Shown piece by piece: positions 19,006-54,845 of a DNA stretch of 64,000 bases; position 1 is the stretch's first letter, and each line of letters starts with the position of its first letter. Position numbers and translations under genes: made by a program. The notes beneath the pieces were generated by a model, which ran no database searches, had not been told where the DNA came from, and worked only from the letters and a program-made list of their open reading frames with translations. Source of the stretch: Candidatus Shapirobacteria bacterium (lineage in GTDB: Bacteria; Patescibacteriota; Microgenomatia; UBA12405). The stretch is from assembly GCA_041659325.1 (NCBI GenBank), contig JBAZYN010000002.1, forward strand, positions 140,906-204,905. The letters are read 5' to 3'.

Positions 19006-22000
19006 ATGAATTCGTCGGGGCCAGTGGCAATAGTTTATGGAATAGAAAAATTTGGAGCGAAGTTTTTGGTAAAGGAATTGCTGCTTAAAGATATATATGT
19101 GGTAGGAGTGGGAGAATATGTGTCGGGGATAGAGGAAAATGATAATTTTAGGTGGGTGGCGGGGAGAGGGGATTATGAGGGGAAGGTGAATTATGTTTTT
19201 GATTTTGAGGGAGATAAAAATATTTTTGATTTAGTTTTGAAGAACTCGGCTAAATTAACAGAGATATGCATTAACGACCAAAAAAAAGCGGAAAGAATAA
19301 AAAACGACTTGATTGGGGCGAATATTAACTGGAGGCTAATAGATGCACGGGGGGTGTATGGCCCGGGGATGGCAGATGATGGGGGAGGGAGGACCGGAAT
19401 TAATTTTTTAGTTGAGGCGGTGTCGGGGGCGGTGAAGAATGAAAATTTGGTTTTGCCGGCTTTGGGAACAAAGTTCAGGTTGTTGAATATTGTGGATTTG
19501 ACCGAAGTGGTTTTGAGGGCAAGCTTTTTATCGGGAACCGAGAAGGAGGAATATGTGATATTTGGCAATGAGAGTGACTCGGGGGAAGTAGCAAAGGTGT
19601 TGATTGATGAGGCAAAGATGACTAAGTTTAAGGTGGTCCAGAAGGATTATAAGTTTGAGACTCCAGGTAAGTATGAGATAGAAGAGAACTGGAGAAAATT
19701 ACGATGGCATCCCGGGGTGGAATTTAGAGAGGGAGTGGTGGAAACTTTGCAGTATTTTTTTTCGGTAATTGATGAAGAAAGCAGGAAAAAAATGAAAGAG
19801 GGGTCGAAAGCCAATAAGTCCAAAAGTCTGAAAGTCCAAAAGTCTGAAAGTCAGAAAATAAAAAAGGAGAAGAATTTATCGAGGTTTGAGGTGATGGTGG
19901 AGGAGGAAAAAACCAATTACGAATTACCAATTACCCACCCCGGCGGGCAGGCGAATTACGAATTAGAAAAAGATAAAAAAGAGACGGTAAGAAAGAATGA
20001 GGTGAGTAGGGAGGCAGAAGAAAGGAAAGCAGAAAAATACAAAAAGGAAATAGAGGAAGAATTTAAAAGGGCAAAAGAGAAAGAAGAGGAAAAAAAGGCG
20101 AAGGAGGAGATAATTTATAGTGAAGAGATTAAATCTTTGGCAAAACAATATACCCAAACCACACCACTGGAGAGAGATGAAGTGATAGAAGAGGACGAGG
20201 AAAGGATAGAGATAAAAAACGAGCTAAAAGACGGGCCTGCCCGCCTCGGTGGGTTAATCGGCAGGCAGGTTGAAAGTAGTAAAACGAGAGAAAAAAAAGG
20301 CGGGACAGGAATAATAAACTTTAAAAAGATCGGATTTTTGGTGATGATTATTTTGGGGTTGGGGATGTTTTCGATTCCGGTCGGGTGGGGGATAAAGGTG
20401 GTGGCCGGGATTAAAAATATCTCTAAAATCAGGGAATATATTGAGGAAGAAAAATACGCTGAGGCTGACAAAAAAGCAGAGACGACGATTGCCGGTTTGA
20501 AAAAAATCGACAACCAGATCGATGATTGGGGGCTAAATAGGATGAAGACTTTTAGGAATTTACAGACTGGGCTAAAGGTAGAGGAGGGAGTGTTGGTGAT
20601 TGAGAAAAAGGCGATTCCGATAGCGGAAGCAATGGAAAAAGTTAGCGGGGCGATTTTTGATGATAAAGAGATTTCCTGGGAAAGTGAACTTGAAGTTCTA
20701 AATAAAGGCATGGTGGAGGTTGATACTGAGATTGGGTTGCTGCAGGCTAGGCTTAATGGTGACTGGAACTGGTTGCCAGCCCGATTCCGACCGGAAGTGC
20801 AGAAGGGGATTAAAAGCTTAAACATGGCCAGATCGGTAATAGGAACTTCAAGGAAGGGACTGAATATCTTGAAAGAGTTTTTGGGAAGTGACGGAAAAAG
20901 GAGAGAATACCTGGTACTGTTTCAAAACGAAAATGAGCTTCGGGCAGGCGGAGGGTTTATCGGGTCGTGGGGGATGCTGAGTTTTGAGGGGGGAAAACTG
21001 CTTAACCTGGATATAAGGGACGTTTATGAGGCAGACGGACAGTTGAAAGGCCATGTTGAACCGCCGGCGGAAATTAAACAGTACCTGGGGGAGGCGGGGT
21101 GGTTTTTGAGAGATTCTAACTGGAAGGTGGATTTTGTGGATGCCAATAAGGATATTGAGTGGTTTTTGGAGAAGGAGACGGGAAGAAAGGTGGATGGGGT
21201 GATAGGGATTAATTTGGCGGTGGCCAAGGCGATACTGGATGTTACCGGGCCGATCTACGTGGTTGATTTTGGTGAAAAAATAGGTAAAGACAACCTATAT
21301 GAACAAGCTCAATTTTATGCAGAAAATAAGTTTTTCCCCGGCTCTAAACAGAAGGCTAGCTTTTTGGGGGGACTGGGAAGACAGTTGTTTGAAGAAATCA
21401 GGAATTTGGATTCGAAAAAGATGCTGGAGCTATATCTCCAAATATTAGAGCAGTTTGATAAAAACGAAATCCAACTGGTAATGCATGAAAAGCAGGCGGC
21501 GAAAATTGCGGCAGATTTGGGGTGGGACGGGGCGATATACCAGGGAAAGTGCCTGACTGACCGGTGTTATGCCGATTATTTGTATTTGTCAGAATCTAAC
21601 TTTGGAGTGAACAAGGCCAATTATTATATATACAGAGGGATTGAGCAGACGGTTGATATTACCCAAATGGCCATCAGCAGGGTGCTGAAAATTAACTACG
21701 AGAACACGGCGAAAAATAAAAGTTGGCCGGGTGGGGATTATAAAAATTATTTGAGGGTTTATATACCACAAGATACGAATCTGGCGGAGGTGAGTATTTC
21801 GGATTCGGCACAACCAGGAAAGAAATCGGTGGTGGGGGCAGGGGAGATGAAGATATCACAAATTTATAATAAAAAAGAAATAGGATTTTTAGTGCCGGTA
21901 CCGGTGGGGCAGAAAAGAACTGTAGAGATTAGATACGTAAGTAAAATTGATTTGGGGATAAAGGATAAATTCTCGTACCTTGGGTATATCCAGAAACAGT

Positions 22001-53474: not shown

Positions 53475-54845
53475 ATGAAAAAAACGAACGAAGTGGTTTT
53501 TGTATGTTCAAATTGTGGGAATGAGTTTGGAAAGTGGAGCGGACAGTGTTCGGCCTGTGGGGAGTGGAATACGCTGAAAGAAGTCAAAAGTCTAAAAGTC
53601 GAAAGTCGAAAGGGAAAAAGATTAAATCAAAAAAGAGAAAGGACACAGGTTGTAAATTTGGGAAAATTAAATCTACCCCTAGCCCCTCCTTTGACGAAAG
53701 GAGGGGAAGGTATTTATATATCTGCGGGAATATCCGAATTTGATAGAGTTTTGGGTAAAGGATTTGTGCGGGGACAAGTAATACTTTTTGCCGGCGAGCC
53801 AGGGATAGGTAAAAGTACGCTTTTGACCCAATTGATGGGAAATGTTTCGGGGTTATATGTGGCCGGGGAGGAGTCGGCAGAACAAATAGCACTAAGAGTG
53901 GAGAGATTACGGCTGGATACGAAAAAGTTTGATATTTTGGAAACTAATTCAGCAGATGAAGTGATTGAGTTTCTGGAACGAGCAAAAAATGTATACAAAA
54001 TAGTGGTGGTCGACTCGATTCAGGTAATGCTGACGGAGGGAGCGGCCTCGGTGGCGGGCAGCCCCGGACAAATTAAGGAAGTAACCTTCAGATTGGTGGA
54101 GGTGGCCAAGAAATTGGGGGTGACTATTATAATAGTAGGACATGTGACCAAGGAGGGGGATATTGCCGGACCAAAAATGCTCGAGCACATGGTGGACACG
54201 GTGTTGTATTTTGAAGGAGACAAAAATTCAGAGCTGAGAATTTTGCGGGTGACTAAAAATAGATTTGGGCCGACGGATGAGGTGGGGGTGTTTAAAATGG
54301 AAGAAAGAGGATTGAGGGAAATTCGAAGTGATGAGATTAATCTGGTGTCGGGGGGTGGGGCGGCGAAAATCGGATCAGCGGTGACAGTGATAATGGAGGG
54401 GACCCGGCCGATATTGGTAGAAATACAAGCATTGGTGGTGGAAAGTTTTGCGCCCATGCCGAAAAGAGTATTTTCGGGAATTGATTATAACCGGGGACAA
54501 TTGTTGATTGCGGTGGCGCAAAAGATTTTGGCGATGCCACTTTATAAATATGATGTGTTTGTATCAGTAACAGGGGGGATTAAGATAGATGATACAGGTT
54601 CTGATATAGCGATATTGGCGGCAATGTGGAGTAGTTATAAAAATCTACCACTAAAACGAAATCCCTCCTCTAATCCTCCCTTTGACAAGGGAGGACGGGG
54701 GGCACTAGTTTTTATTGGAGAAGTATCATTGTTGGGAGAGGTGAAGAAAGTGAGGAATTGGGAAAGAAGAATCAAAGAGGCAAAGAGTTTGGGGTGGGAG
54801 GCGGGGGAAGTAGATGGGGTAAGAGATTTAAAGCTTTTAGTTTAG
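53475..54845 (+). CDS. radA: DNA repair protein RadA/Sms with three in-frame repeat/palindrome inserts
   Basis: C4 zinc finger CSNCGNEFGKWSGQCSACGEW, Walker A GEPGIGKSTLL and RVTKNRFGPT (the KNRFG motif), plus a Lon-like C-terminal domain. The inserts are SLKVESRKGKR (53580-53612), PLAPPLTKGGEG (53668-53710) and KRNPSSNPPFDKGGRGA (54659-54702). Confidence 0.85.
   Translation: MKKTNEVVFVCSNCGNEFGKWSGQCSACGEWNTLKEVKSLKVESRKGKRLNQKRERTQVVNLGKLNLPLAPPLTKGGEGIYISAGISEFDRVLGKGFVRGQVILFAGEPGIGKSTLLTQLMGNVSGLYVAGEESAEQIALRVERLRLDTKKFDILETNSADEVIEFLERAKNVYKIVVVDSIQVMLTEGAASVAGSPGQIKEVTFRLVEVAKKLGVTIIIVGHVTKEGDIAGPKMLEHMVDTVLYFEGDKNSELRILRVTKNRFGPTDEVGVFKMEERGLREIRSDEINLVSGGGAAKIGSAVTVIMEGTRPILVEIQALVVESFAPMPKRVFSGIDYNRGQLLIAVAQKILAMPLYKYDVFVSVTGGIKIDDTGSDIAILAAMWSSYKNLPLKRNPSSNPPFDKGGRGALVFIGEVSLLGEVKKVRNWERRIKEAKSLGWEAGEVDGVRDLKLLV
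53580..53612. repeat. AGTCNNAA array (A7, in-frame in the radA zinc-finger/ATPase linker)
   Basis: agtcaaa agtctaaa agtcgaa agtcgaaa. Confidence 0.8.
53668..53710. repeat. palindromic element (P6), in-frame in radA
   Basis: aaatctacccctagCCCCTCCTTTGACGAAAGGAGGGGaagg. Confidence 0.8.
54659..54702. repeat. palindromic element (P7), in-frame in the radA Lon-like domain
   Basis: aatccctcctctaatCCTCCCTTTGACAAGGGAGGacgggggg. Confidence 0.8.

What the first reader, a model, noticed from the sequence alone, without database searches (positions are those of the whole stretch)
19817..53612. Dispersed 8-nt-period tandem repeat (AGTCNNAA)n at seven loci: in-frame inside essential genes, in the rRNA spacer, and as an inverted hairpin inside 23S rRNA
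Seen directly in the sequence: seven arrays of 4-9 units of AGTC(T/C/G)(A/T/C/G)AA, often with a 16-nt super-period, within 34 kb. Four sit inside protein-coding genes: the S1 ribosomal protein gene, radA, a RimK-like ligase gene and the DUF4012 gene. In each, the array length keeps the reading frame and adds a short Lys/Ser-rich peptide such as KSLKVEKSQS, placed in positions that are loops or linkers in homologs. One array sits between tRNA-Ala and 23S. One sits between rpsA and its terminator. One is inside the 23S rRNA gene, followed immediately by its reverse complement, so the transcript would carry a long perfect hairpin (an apparent expansion segment). A period-8 repeat in coding sequence survives only when the copy number is a multiple of 3, which implies strong purifying filtering of a very active expansion process. 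This looks like a genome-wide invading microsatellite or micro-element rather than chance. Possible roles are hypotheses only: a DNA-uptake-signal-like motif (the core GTCTGAA is also the core of the Neisseria DUS GCCGTCTGAA); a protein or RNA-binding site array; contingency or phase-variable tracts; or the footprint of a site-specific insertion mechanism.
Basis: seen in the sequence. Interest (0 to 1): 0.85.

Follow-up and report, generated by a model that had tools for sequence, protein, structure and literature searches.

The report
Dispersed 8-base tandem repeat family
A candidate-phyla-radiation bacterium (Shapirobacteria) carries many short arrays of one 8-base unit, AAAGTCNN, in harmless spots of essential genes and ribosomal RNA; this is a new example of a known but unexplained class of bacterial repeats, not a new kind of element.

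Summary
Seven arrays of AGTCNNAA lie on the + strand between 19817 and 53611. There are 18 dimer matches against 0 in 100 shuffles. Four arrays are in frame in the DUF4012, RimK-like, rpsA and radA genes. One lies in the tRNA-Ala/23S spacer, one lies after the rpsA stop, and one is the 5' arm of a ~100-nt hairpin inserted in 23S helix 25.

Close relatives show that the tracts are young and lineage-specific:
- The rpsA array is exactly 3 units (24 nt) shorter in relatives with 92-97% identical S1 cores.
- The helix-25 hairpin is absent from the nearest relative.
- radA carries a different, 7-base repeat at the same spot in that relative.

The motif itself is not special. Same-composition control octamers form arrays about as often in viral contigs. 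Genomes of many phyla that carry AAAGTCNN arrays also carry many other 7- and 8-base arrays. The window has a second family (GTAATNN) and a small palindromic element, both also found in frame in genes.

This matches the known long-simple-sequence-repeat / cyanobacterial STRR class. The likeliest process is replication slippage filtered by reading frame, stop codons and RNA folding. I found no support for a DNA-uptake signal or phase variation. The hairpin is imperfect, and it sits at a classical intervening-sequence site.

The parts
19817..19856 (+). Octamer array 1: 5 units with a 16-nt super-period, in frame in the DUF4012 gene (19006-22158). Encodes KSKSLKVQKSESQK inside a Lys/Glu-rich low-complexity region.
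39241..39295 (+). Octamer array 2: about 7 units including AATC variants and one 7-nt unit, in frame in the RimK-like ATP-grasp gene (38313-39437). It sits in a loop between conserved GVD(V/I)M and LEVN. The loop is absent from the L131 ortholog.
44909..44948 (+). Octamer array 3 in the spacer between tRNA-Ala (44765-44839) and 23S (from 45077). An orthologous 3-unit array with different NN is present in L121. It is absent from L126.
45652..45755 (+). Insertion of about 100 nt in the loop of 23S helix 25. The 5' arm is octamer array 4 (45665-45698) and the 3' arm is the inverted GACTTT array (45707-45747). It folds into an imperfect hairpin. It is absent from relatives L121, L126 and L131; L127 carries a different, 127-nt insert at the same 23S position.
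49652..49725 (+). Octamer array 5: 9 units, (AGTCTCAA AGTCGAAA)n, in frame from codon 8 of rpsA (49631-50809). It is 3 units longer than in L123 and L125 and absent from L126 and L131.
50822..50848 (+). Octamer array 6: 2 perfect units plus degenerate units between the rpsA stop codon and a GC-rich terminator-like hairpin (about 50858-50885). It is absent from L121, L125 and L126. A comparable array follows the rpsA stop in L129.
53582..53611 (+). Octamer array 7: units of 7, 8, 7 and 7 nt, in frame in radA (53475-54845), in the linker after the zinc ribbon. L125 has a degenerate octamer tract there. L123 and L127 have heptamer tracts at the same place.
14026..14076 (+). Second repeat family: a heptamer array (GTAATNN)n, intergenic.
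14560..14635 (+). Heptamer arrays (GTAA[TC]NN)n flanking the GC-rich palindrome ACCTACCTGTCGGCAGGCAGGT (about 14593-14614).
18592..18625 (+). Heptamer array (GTAATNN)n overlapping the end of ORF 17384-18610.
19912..19935 (-). Heptamer array in the opposite orientation (reads ATTACNN on the + strand), in frame in the DUF4012 gene, 55 nt after octamer array 1.

Best explanation
The seven tracts are one family (unit AAAGTCNN) of long simple sequence repeats. This class includes the cyanobacterial STRR heptamers, the TAACTGA repeats of Beggiatoaceae and the GGGAATC repeats of Xanthomonas.

**Proposed process**
- Arrays lengthen and shorten by strand slippage during replication, in steps of one 8-nt unit or one 16-nt double unit. 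This step is inferred.
- Selection removes arrays wherever they do harm. The surviving pattern is what is shown.

**Where arrays survive**
- In genes, they survive only in disordered tails, linkers and loops. There they appear only in the A-rich orientation, which encodes Lys/Ser/Val/Glu. The total length must keep the frame, and stop-forming units (NN = TA or TG) must be out of frame.
- In rRNA, they survive only in spacers and in variable helices, where an inverted partner array lets the insert fold back on itself.

**Function.** No function needs to be assumed. The tracts behave as fast-turning-over, nearly neutral or mildly selfish sequence.

**Still unexplained.** Why one unit dominates at many loci of one genome is unknown here, as it is for the whole class.
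For: **Class features**
- The same unit forms tandem arrays at 7 loci within 34 kb.
- A second family, GTAATNN, gives 9 matches against 0 in shuffles.
- Distribution among relatives is sporadic. L126 and L131 (42 kb in total) have no arrays of period 7 or 8.

**Turnover**
- The rpsA array has 9 units in the window and 6 in L123 and L125. The window's extra block is a perfect 16-nt periodicity.
- The helix-25 insert and the array after the rpsA stop are absent from the nearest relative.
- In radA the unit switches between octamer and heptamer among relatives.
- The same rpsA site carries AAAGTCNN arrays in three S1 lineages whose nearest neighbours lack them.

**Filters**
- Stop-forming units are depleted in coding arrays.
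- Coding inserts fall in the S1 tail, the radA linker and the RimK loop.

**Generality**
- Those same loci are packed with other arrays of period 7 and 8. Tandem Repeats Finder lists 182 rows at period 7 and 255 at period 8, against 7, 23, 26 and 7 rows at periods 5, 6, 9 and 10.
- About 88% of the arrays in those loci are intergenic, with no sense or antisense preference (27:27).
- Control octamer cores form arrays at similar rates in viral contigs.

**Literature**
- The class is described, including the proposal that polymerase slippage explains the excess of heptamers (PMC4679880, PMC4692102).
Against: - Slippage needs a seed of at least two units. The helix-25 site in relatives has no AAAGTC seed, yet the window has a complete two-armed insert of about 100 nt. 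That looks more like a block insertion.
- Independent seeding does not explain why 7 of about 10 period-8 arrays in the window share one core.
- Two directional biases are not predicted by neutral slippage alone:
  - The AAAGTC arm is the 5' arm in 22 of 25 inverted pairs (p = 1.6e-4).
  - The AAAGTC strand is the G-rich strand in 68 of 105 loci (p = 0.003).
- The specificity control used viral contigs, not bacterial genomes.
- The rest of the source genome could not be examined.
Confidence: 0.68

Rival explanations
1. The arrays are seeded by an active copy-and-paste process, such as an unknown micro-element, templated insertion or gene conversion from other arrays. This process places ready-made AAAGTCNN blocks, sometimes with their inverted partner, at new sites. 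Slippage only modifies them afterwards.
For: - A complete two-armed insert appears in 23S helix 25 within a lineage whose S1 core is 97% identical to a relative that lacks it. There is no seed at the site.
- One core is present at 7 loci.
- The radA linker holds an octamer tract in the window and a heptamer tract of equal length in L123.
- The genome also carries a 29-nt palindromic element with 3 identical copies, and variants of it in frame in radA and the RimK paralog. Small insertions are therefore happening in this lineage.
- Genome-specific dominant units are also reported for TAACTGA and GGGAATC (PMC4679880, PMC4692102).
Against: - The seven arrays share no flanks, terminal repeats or target duplications.
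- BLAST finds no similarity extending beyond the repeat units, so no donor can be named.
- No candidate enzyme gene is associated.
- The two arms of the helix-25 hairpin differ at the NN positions, so neither is a fresh copy of the other.
Confidence: 0.2
2. The arrays are functional binding-site arrays in RNA or single-stranded DNA, or terminator or stabiliser hairpins. One example would be sites for ribosomal protein S1 or a cold-shock protein that tune translation or transcript ends, as proposed for TAACTGA repeats.
For: - Arrays sit on both sides of rpsA (start of the ORF and just after the stop) in the window. They also sit at the start of the rpsA ORF in L127 and L129, and after the rpsA stop in L129.
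- Heptamer arrays lie directly upstream of the radA ribosome-binding site in L121 and L123.
- In inverted pairs the GACTTT arm is 3' in 22 of 25 cases. This gives a U-rich 3' side on both strands, as in bidirectional terminators.
- The S1 and cold-shock-protein binding idea is in the literature (PMC4679880).
Against: - Unpaired arrays show no orientation preference relative to flanking genes in other phyla (27 sense, 27 antisense).
- Positions relative to genes are heterogeneous (5' ORF, mid-ORF loops, 3' UTR, spacer, rRNA).
- Presence, absence and unit type change between very close relatives. That argues against a conserved regulatory role.
Confidence: 0.1
3. The arrays are contingency (phase-variable) tracts. 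Changes in their length switch genes on and off.
For: The unit length is not a multiple of 3, so single-unit changes would shift the frame. Copy number does vary between relatives.
Against: - The host genes are rpsA, radA, a RimK-like ligase and a DUF4012 gene. rpsA is essential; the others are conserved (housekeeping-type) genes. All are intact.
- The only observed variant differs by 3 units and stays in frame.
- No out-of-frame alleles were seen in 5 relatives.
Confidence: 0.03
4. The arrays are a DNA-uptake-signal-like motif related to the Neisseria DUS core GTCTGAA.
For: Some units read AGTCTGAA.
Against: - TG is only one of at least ten NN variants in the window (CA, TG, TT, TA, TC, GA, AG, AA and others).
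- Thirty of the 37 + strand units are in arrays, not scattered as single copies.
- The motif is equally arrayed in phyla with no link to Neisseria.
- Control cores behave the same way.
Confidence: 0.01

Closest known systems
Long simple sequence repeats of prokaryotes (Mrazek et al. 2007, as summarised in PMC4679880 and PMC4692102) and cyanobacterial STRR heptamers (Mazel 1990; the Vioque 1997 title is cited in PMC2858038)
   Same: - Tandem arrays of a 5-11-nt unit.
- The same unit at many dispersed loci of one genome.
- Sporadic distribution among relatives.
- Length variation between close strains.
- STRR tracts also occur inside a structural RNA gene (RNase P RNA), as here in 23S rRNA.
   Different: - The unit is 8 nt, not the usual 7, although a 7-nt family coexists.
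- The host is a CPR bacterium with a small genome.
- Four of the seven arrays lie in frame inside conserved genes, whereas the class is mostly intergenic.
TAACTGA direct repeats of marine Beggiatoaceae, Cyanobacteria and Bacteroidetes (MacGregor 2015, PMC4679880)
   Same: - One dominant unit per genome, found across distant phyla.
- Occasional in-ORF copies restricted to protein termini.
- The orientation allowed inside ORFs is set by stop codons.
- The repeats occur next to ribosomal protein genes.
   Different: TAACTGA repeats sit mostly just upstream of start codons in one orientation, which suggested translational control. No such positional rule holds here or for AAAGTCNN arrays in other phyla.
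GGGAATC / (GGGANTN)n repeats of Xanthomonas and GGGGA(T/C)T repeats of Nostoc (Rehm 2015, PMC4692102)
   Same: - A conserved core with variable positions within the unit.
- Convergent inverted pairs able to form stem-loops.
- Extensive length and sequence variation between closely related genomes at the same intergenic sites.
   Different: Those repeats are G-rich and can form quadruplexes. AAAGTCNN cannot.
23S rRNA intervening sequences at helices 9, 25 and 45, excised by RNase III (PMC4990558)
   Same: - The insert is at helix 25.
- It forms an extended stem-loop.
- It is present or absent among very close relatives.
- Relatives carry comparable inserts at about positions 134, 274, 574 and 1214.
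   Different: - The insert is built from short tandem repeats and their inverted copy.
- It has no ORF.
- Excision is untested.
Slippage-driven growth of eukaryotic rRNA expansion segments ('compensatory slippage', Hancock and Dover; recalled from memory, not checked here)
   Same: Simple repeats in both arms of a variable rRNA helix keep it paired while it grows.
   Different: This is a bacterial 23S rRNA and a very recent event. The arms do not match at the NN positions.
Rickettsia palindromic elements inserted in frame in protein genes (PMC10969869)
   Same: Small repeated DNA is tolerated in frame in unrelated housekeeping genes of a reduced genome, at structurally permissive sites.
   Different: RPEs are elements of about 150 bp with defined ends. 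The arrays here have no ends. The 29-nt palindromic element seen in passing is the closer analogue.

Membership tests
Long simple sequence repeats / STRR-type dispersed tandem repeats | Head-to-tail copies of a unit of 5-11 nt, longer than chance allows | tested here: met
   18 dimer matches against 0 in shuffles. Tandem Repeats Finder reports arrays of 2.6-7.8 copies.
Long simple sequence repeats / STRR-type dispersed tandem repeats | The same unit recurs at many separate loci of the genome | tested here: met
   Seven loci within 34 kb of the window. More are found in relatives L121, L127 and L129. The rest of the source genome was not available.
Long simple sequence repeats / STRR-type dispersed tandem repeats | Copy number differs between closely related strains | tested here: met
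   The rpsA array has 9 units in the window and 6 in L123 and L125. The spacer array differs from L121 in NN and in length.
Long simple sequence repeats / STRR-type dispersed tandem repeats | Sporadic phylogenetic distribution | tested here: met
   Absent from Shapirobacteria L126 and L131. Present in three separate S1 lineages and in many other phyla.
Long simple sequence repeats / STRR-type dispersed tandem repeats | Units whose length is not a multiple of 3 are mostly intergenic | tested here: inconclusive
   About 88% of arrays are intergenic in the 120 loci from other phyla, but only 3 of 7 are non-coding in the window.
23S rRNA intervening sequence (IVS) | Located in helix 9, 25 or 45 | tested here: met
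   The Rfam alignment places the insert in the helix-25 loop, between model positions 583 and 584. It lies after position 574 of the L131 23S.
23S rRNA intervening sequence (IVS) | Forms an extended stem-loop | tested here: met
   MFE -53.6 kcal/mol, z = -6.98.
23S rRNA intervening sequence (IVS) | Excised by RNase III without ligation, leaving a fragmented 23S rRNA | not testable with these tools
   This needs RNA data.
DNA uptake sequence (Neisseria DUS type) | A fixed 10-12-nt sequence, highly over-represented as single copies across the genome | tested here: not met
   The NN positions vary freely. Thirty of the 37 units are in arrays.
Contingency locus (phase-variable simple sequence repeat) | On and off alleles that differ by frame-shifting copy-number changes, typically in surface or restriction-modification genes | tested here: not met
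   Only in-frame alleles were seen. The hosts are rpsA, radA, a RimK-like gene and a DUF4012 gene. The sample is small.
MITE / REP-type mobile element | Defined termini (inverted repeats or a conserved head) and target-site duplication | tested here: not met
   No shared flanks. No similarity beyond the units.

The most novel reading that the evidence does not exclude
Some lineages across many phyla, including this CPR clade, may possess an undiscovered sequence-specific activity. It would write or paste short 7-8-nt arrays, often as array plus inverted array in a fixed polarity, into new sites including rRNA helices and ORFs. Families such as AAAGTCNN, GTAATNN, TAACTGA and the STRRs would then be the footprints of a mobile or enzymatic system, not of passive slippage.
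Probability: 0.15. Interest if true: 0.75.

Novelty: new member of a known kind. Interest (0 to 1): 0.4.

Why it matters
Dispersed families of 7-8-nt tandem repeats have been known since 1990. No one has explained why one unit spreads through a genome.

This clade offers closely related genomes that differ by datable events:
- a 3-unit expansion in rpsA;
- a whole repeat hairpin gained in 23S helix 25;
- an octamer tract and a heptamer tract occupying the same radA linker in different strains.

These contrasts make the choice between growth from a seed and block insertion testable with more genomes and with reads.

The case also shows that essential proteins and rRNA of a very small genome tolerate such insertions. 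It suggests a simple source for the short rRNA insertions common in CPR bacteria. The practical consequence is modest. Length-variable tracts inside rpsA, radA and 23S can disturb gene calling, alignment and primer design.

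Tried and rejected
- **Literal sequence search of the literature.** Six array strings returned only unrelated primer matches.
- **Exact-protein look-up of the window's S1.** Not on record, so the source contig could not be extended.
- **Metagenome scan with the 36-nt rpsA leader, to collect strain variants.** It returned only the contig already held. There is no population-level copy-number data.
- **BLAST of each array with its flanks against the window and relatives.** Only the units themselves match, so no donor was found.
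- **Shared flanks, terminal repeats or target duplications.** None were found.
- **Transcript-level orientation rule.** Rejected by 27 sense against 27 antisense in other phyla.
- **'AAAGTC is a special cross-phylum motif'.** Rejected by the control cores.
- **'The A-rich arm is always 5' in repeat hairpins'.** True only for this family (22:3). Other families give 11:14.
- **Terminator scan.** The consensus scan did not list the hairpin after rpsA. I folded it directly instead.
- **Apparent radA truncation in L121.** The gene is called at 392 aa against 453 aa in L123. This is not a repeat frameshift, because the two sequences are nearly identical across the array.

Full report
**1. What is in the window**

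The pattern AGTCNNAAAGTCNNAA occurs 18 times, always on the + strand. It never occurs in 100 dinucleotide-preserving shuffles. Of the 37 single AGTCNNAA units on the + strand, 30 belong to seven arrays.

Tandem Repeats Finder reports the arrays with period 8. For arrays 1 and 5 it also reports a cleaner period of 16 (100% and 98% matches).

- a DUF4012 gene, a RimK-like ATP-grasp gene, rpsA (four S1 domains) and radA (zinc ribbon plus KaiC/RecA-type ATPase), confirmed by Pfam;
- tRNA-Ala;
- 23S and 5S rRNA.

Array 6 lies 13 nt after the rpsA stop, ahead of a GC-rich hairpin with a T run.

The 23S tract is the 5' arm of an insertion of about 100 nt in the loop of helix 25. Its 3' arm is an inverted GACTTT array. 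The fold is strong but has internal loops at the NN positions (-53.6 kcal/mol, z = -7). It is not a perfect hairpin.

**2. The organism and its relatives**

The S1 protein places the window in Candidatus Shapirobacteria, a CPR / Microgenomates lineage.

Among 120 S1 homologs the N-terminal tail is a short, variable Lys-rich segment. Only the closest relatives (P0001-P0003) carry the array-encoded peptide. Their S1 cores are 92-97% identical to the window's, and their proteins are exactly 8 residues shorter.

DNA alignments of the loci fetched for those proteins show the following:
- **rpsA array.** The window has three more units (24 nt) than L123 and L125. The extra block is perfect 16-nt periodicity. 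L125's array is degenerate. L126 has none.
- **Helix-25 insert.** It is absent from L121, L126 and L131. L127 carries a different insert, built of other short repeats, at the same position.
- **Array after the rpsA stop.** It is absent from L121, L125 and L126.
- **radA linker.** At the same position L123 carries a heptamer tract (ATTACGA)n of the same length, and L125 carries a degenerate octamer tract.

Two more distant lineages, L127 and L129, have their own AAAGTCNN arrays at the start of rpsA. L129 also has arrays after the rpsA stop. Their nearest S1 neighbours lack such arrays. The family has therefore been gained or lost repeatedly at the same tolerant sites.

The RimK loop that holds array 2 is missing from the L131 ortholog. 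A degenerate form is present in the adjacent paralog. The radA alignment shows that the linker after the zinc ribbon is hypervariable in all seven genomes.

**3. The filters**

In coding arrays every stop triplet is out of frame, as it must be. More informative is the share of stop-forming units (NN = TA or TG). They make up 6 of 8 canonical units in the three non-coding arrays but only 4 of 18 in the four coding arrays (Fisher p = 0.026). The longest coding array uses only stop-free units.

The frame rule (multiples of three units) is directly visible only in rpsA. The radA and RimK arrays contain 7-nt units.

All coding arrays are in the A-rich orientation, which encodes Lys/Ser/Val/Glu/Gln. 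I infer that the opposite orientation, which would encode Asp-Phe and Thr-Leu-type peptides, is selected against.

**4. The motif is not special; the class is general**

A scan of one genome per bacterial and archaeal species searched for four AAGTC cores at 8-nt spacing. That pattern is three full AAGTCNNA units plus a fourth core. The hits included Bacteroidota (several loci in Flavobacterium caeni alone), Thermoanaerobaculia and other Acidobacteriota, Kofleriaceae, Phycisphaerae, Verrucomicrobiota, Omnitrophota, Magasanikiibacteriota, Cyanobacteria and others.

Tandem Repeats Finder on those same 8-kb loci shows them packed with other short arrays of many different units:
- 182 rows at period 7 and 255 at period 8;
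- only 7, 23, 26 and 7 rows at periods 5, 6, 9 and 10.

Many of these arrays come as an array plus its inverted copy 10-150 nt away, forming long hairpins.

In viral contigs the AAGTC pattern gives 11 loci. Same-composition control cores AAGCT, AACTG and AATCG give 15, 7 and 13. The cross-phylum presence of AAAGTCNN therefore reflects a general abundance of 7-8-nt arrays and not a privileged sequence.

In the other phyla about 88% of the arrays are intergenic. Unpaired arrays between co-directional genes are sense and antisense equally often (27:27, using rough ORF-based gene calls). This argues against a general transcript-level role.

**5. Other repeat families in the same window**

- The heptamer GTAATNN forms arrays at 14026-14076, 14560-14635 and 18592-18625. 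It also occurs in the opposite orientation, in frame, at 19912-19935. It gives 9 matches against 0 in shuffles.
- A 29-nt palindromic element, CCCTCTAAATCTCCCTTTGACAAGGGAGA, has three identical copies. Variants lie in frame in radA (twice) and in the RimK paralog.
- A GC-rich palindrome, CCTGCCTGCCGGCAGGCAGG, occurs near 14598. In L123 it is in frame inside radA.

The lineage as a whole tolerates small repeat insertions in genes and in rRNA.

**6. What is known**

The literature describes this class:
- Long simple sequence repeats have heptamers as their most abundant unit. Slippage related to the polymerase footprint has been proposed as the cause (summarised in PMC4679880 and PMC4692102).
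- Cyanobacterial STRR heptamers also occur inside the RNase P RNA gene (the Vioque 1997 title is cited in PMC2858038).
- TAACTGA repeats are shared by Beggiatoaceae, Cyanobacteria and Bacteroidetes. In-ORF copies are confined to protein ends, and S1 or cold-shock proteins have been proposed as binders (PMC4679880).
- The (GGGANTN)n repeats of Xanthomonas have variable positions, convergent inverted pairs and rapid turnover (PMC4692102).

Helix 25 is one of the three classical sites of 23S intervening sequences excised by RNase III (PMC4990558). Short and long insertions in CPR rRNA genes are well documented (PMC11270868). In-frame insertion of small repeats in housekeeping genes is known from Rickettsia palindromic elements (PMC10969869).

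I found no paper describing this octamer family, or repeat families in CPR genomes in general. The library searched is incomplete.

**7. Mechanism**

Shown:
- rapid, lineage-specific gain, loss and resizing of arrays;
- resizing in whole units that preserves the frame;
- restriction to permissive sites.

Inferred:
- slippage as the engine of growth;
- purifying selection as the filter.

Not explained:
- how one unit comes to occupy many sites;
- how a complete two-armed insert arose at a seedless site in helix 25.

No defined ends, target duplications or donor copies were found. I therefore rank a copy-and-paste element second (about 0.2), not first.

Two unexpected polarities deserve follow-up:
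- In 22 of 25 inverted pairs the AAAGTC array is the 5' arm (p = 1.6e-4). Other unit families show no such rule (11:14).
- In 68 of 105 loci the AAAGTC strand is the locally G-rich strand (p = 0.003). The same holds in the window, whose + strand has a GC skew of +0.24 to +0.41.

The first polarity fits selection for U-rich 3' arms, that is, terminator-like hairpins. The second fits a replication-strand effect. Neither has been proven.

**8. Verdict**

The tracts are a new member of a known kind, with an 8-nt unit and a CPR host. Their placement in rpsA, radA and a 23S intervening-sequence site is conspicuous. Interest is moderate. The find is not a new kind of system, but the clade is a good natural experiment for the unsolved origin of such repeat families.

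Noticed in passing
window 14026-14076, 14560-14635, 18592-18625 (+); 19912-19935 (opposite orientation): A second dispersed tandem-repeat family with a 7-nt unit, GTAATNN, gives 9 matches against 0 in shuffles. The forward form contains TAA and is found only outside ORFs. The reverse form is in frame in the DUF4012 gene. Relatives carry related heptamer tracts upstream of and inside radA.
   Followed up: partly
window 22674-22702 (-), 39983-40011 (+), 49499-49527 (+); variants at 18814, 40407, 53685, 54679; also L121 after the rpsA stop: A small palindromic element, CCCTCTAAATCTCCCTTTGACAAGGGAGA, has three identical copies and several variants. The variants lie in frame in radA (peptides PPLTKGGEG and PPFDKGGRG) and in the RimK paralog (SPFDKGDLG, SPFEERG). 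It resembles very small mobile repeats or RPE-like insertions.
   Followed up: partly
window ~14593-14614; L121 6720 and 7218; L123 1975 and 2473: A GC-rich palindrome, CCTGCCTGCCGGCAGGCAGG, is flanked by heptamer arrays in the window. In L123 one copy is in frame inside radA, giving GPACRQA just after the Walker A region.
   Followed up: partly
window 47908-48798 (ORF 48075-48659): An 891-nt insertion near the 3' end of 23S encodes a LAGLIDADG_2 endonuclease and is probably a group I intron. L127 has an 886-nt version and L121 an ORF-less 330-nt version at the same site. The Rfam end coordinate for 23S (47994) is therefore too early. The true 3' end is near 49200.
   Followed up: partly
window 46403-46552; L121 2879-3027; L127 976-1129, 1250-1395, 1706-1832, 2461-2822: Further lineage-specific 23S inserts lie at about positions 134, 274, 574 and 1214 of a plain 23S, in the regions of helices 9, 25 and 45. 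In L127 the inserts near positions 134 and 274 are built from heptamer arrays plus their inverted copies; the L127 inserts near 574 and 1214 contain other short repeats or none clearly, and L121 has repeat-bearing inserts only near 1214.
   Followed up: partly
window 1-64000: The strand asymmetry is very strong. GC skew is +0.24 to +0.41 in every 8-kb block (G 18137, C 9816), and nearly all long genes lie on the + strand.
   Followed up: no
window 44338-44839 and 41837-44302: tRNA-Ile and tRNA-Ala precede 23S as in a normal 16S-23S spacer. However, the upstream neighbour is a protein gene (821 aa, weak cohesin match), so the 16S gene is not linked to this operon.
   Followed up: no
window 42947-43316: Long coding tandem repeats with periods of 24, 27, 48 and 78 nt (up to 97% identical) lie inside the 821-aa cohesin-like protein. 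They are unrelated to the octamer family.
   Followed up: no
window 49602-49630: A hairpin with a T run ends directly at the rpsA ATG, with no Shine-Dalgarno sequence. It is conserved in L123, L125 and L126. It could be the rRNA operon terminator or an rpsA leader structure.
   Followed up: no
L001-L120 (other phyla): In inverted pairs of AAAGTCNN arrays the AAAGTC array is the 5' arm in 22 of 25 cases. The AAAGTC strand is the locally G-rich strand in 68 of 105 loci. Periods 7 and 8 far outnumber periods 5, 6, 9 and 10 among short arrays in these loci.
   Followed up: partly
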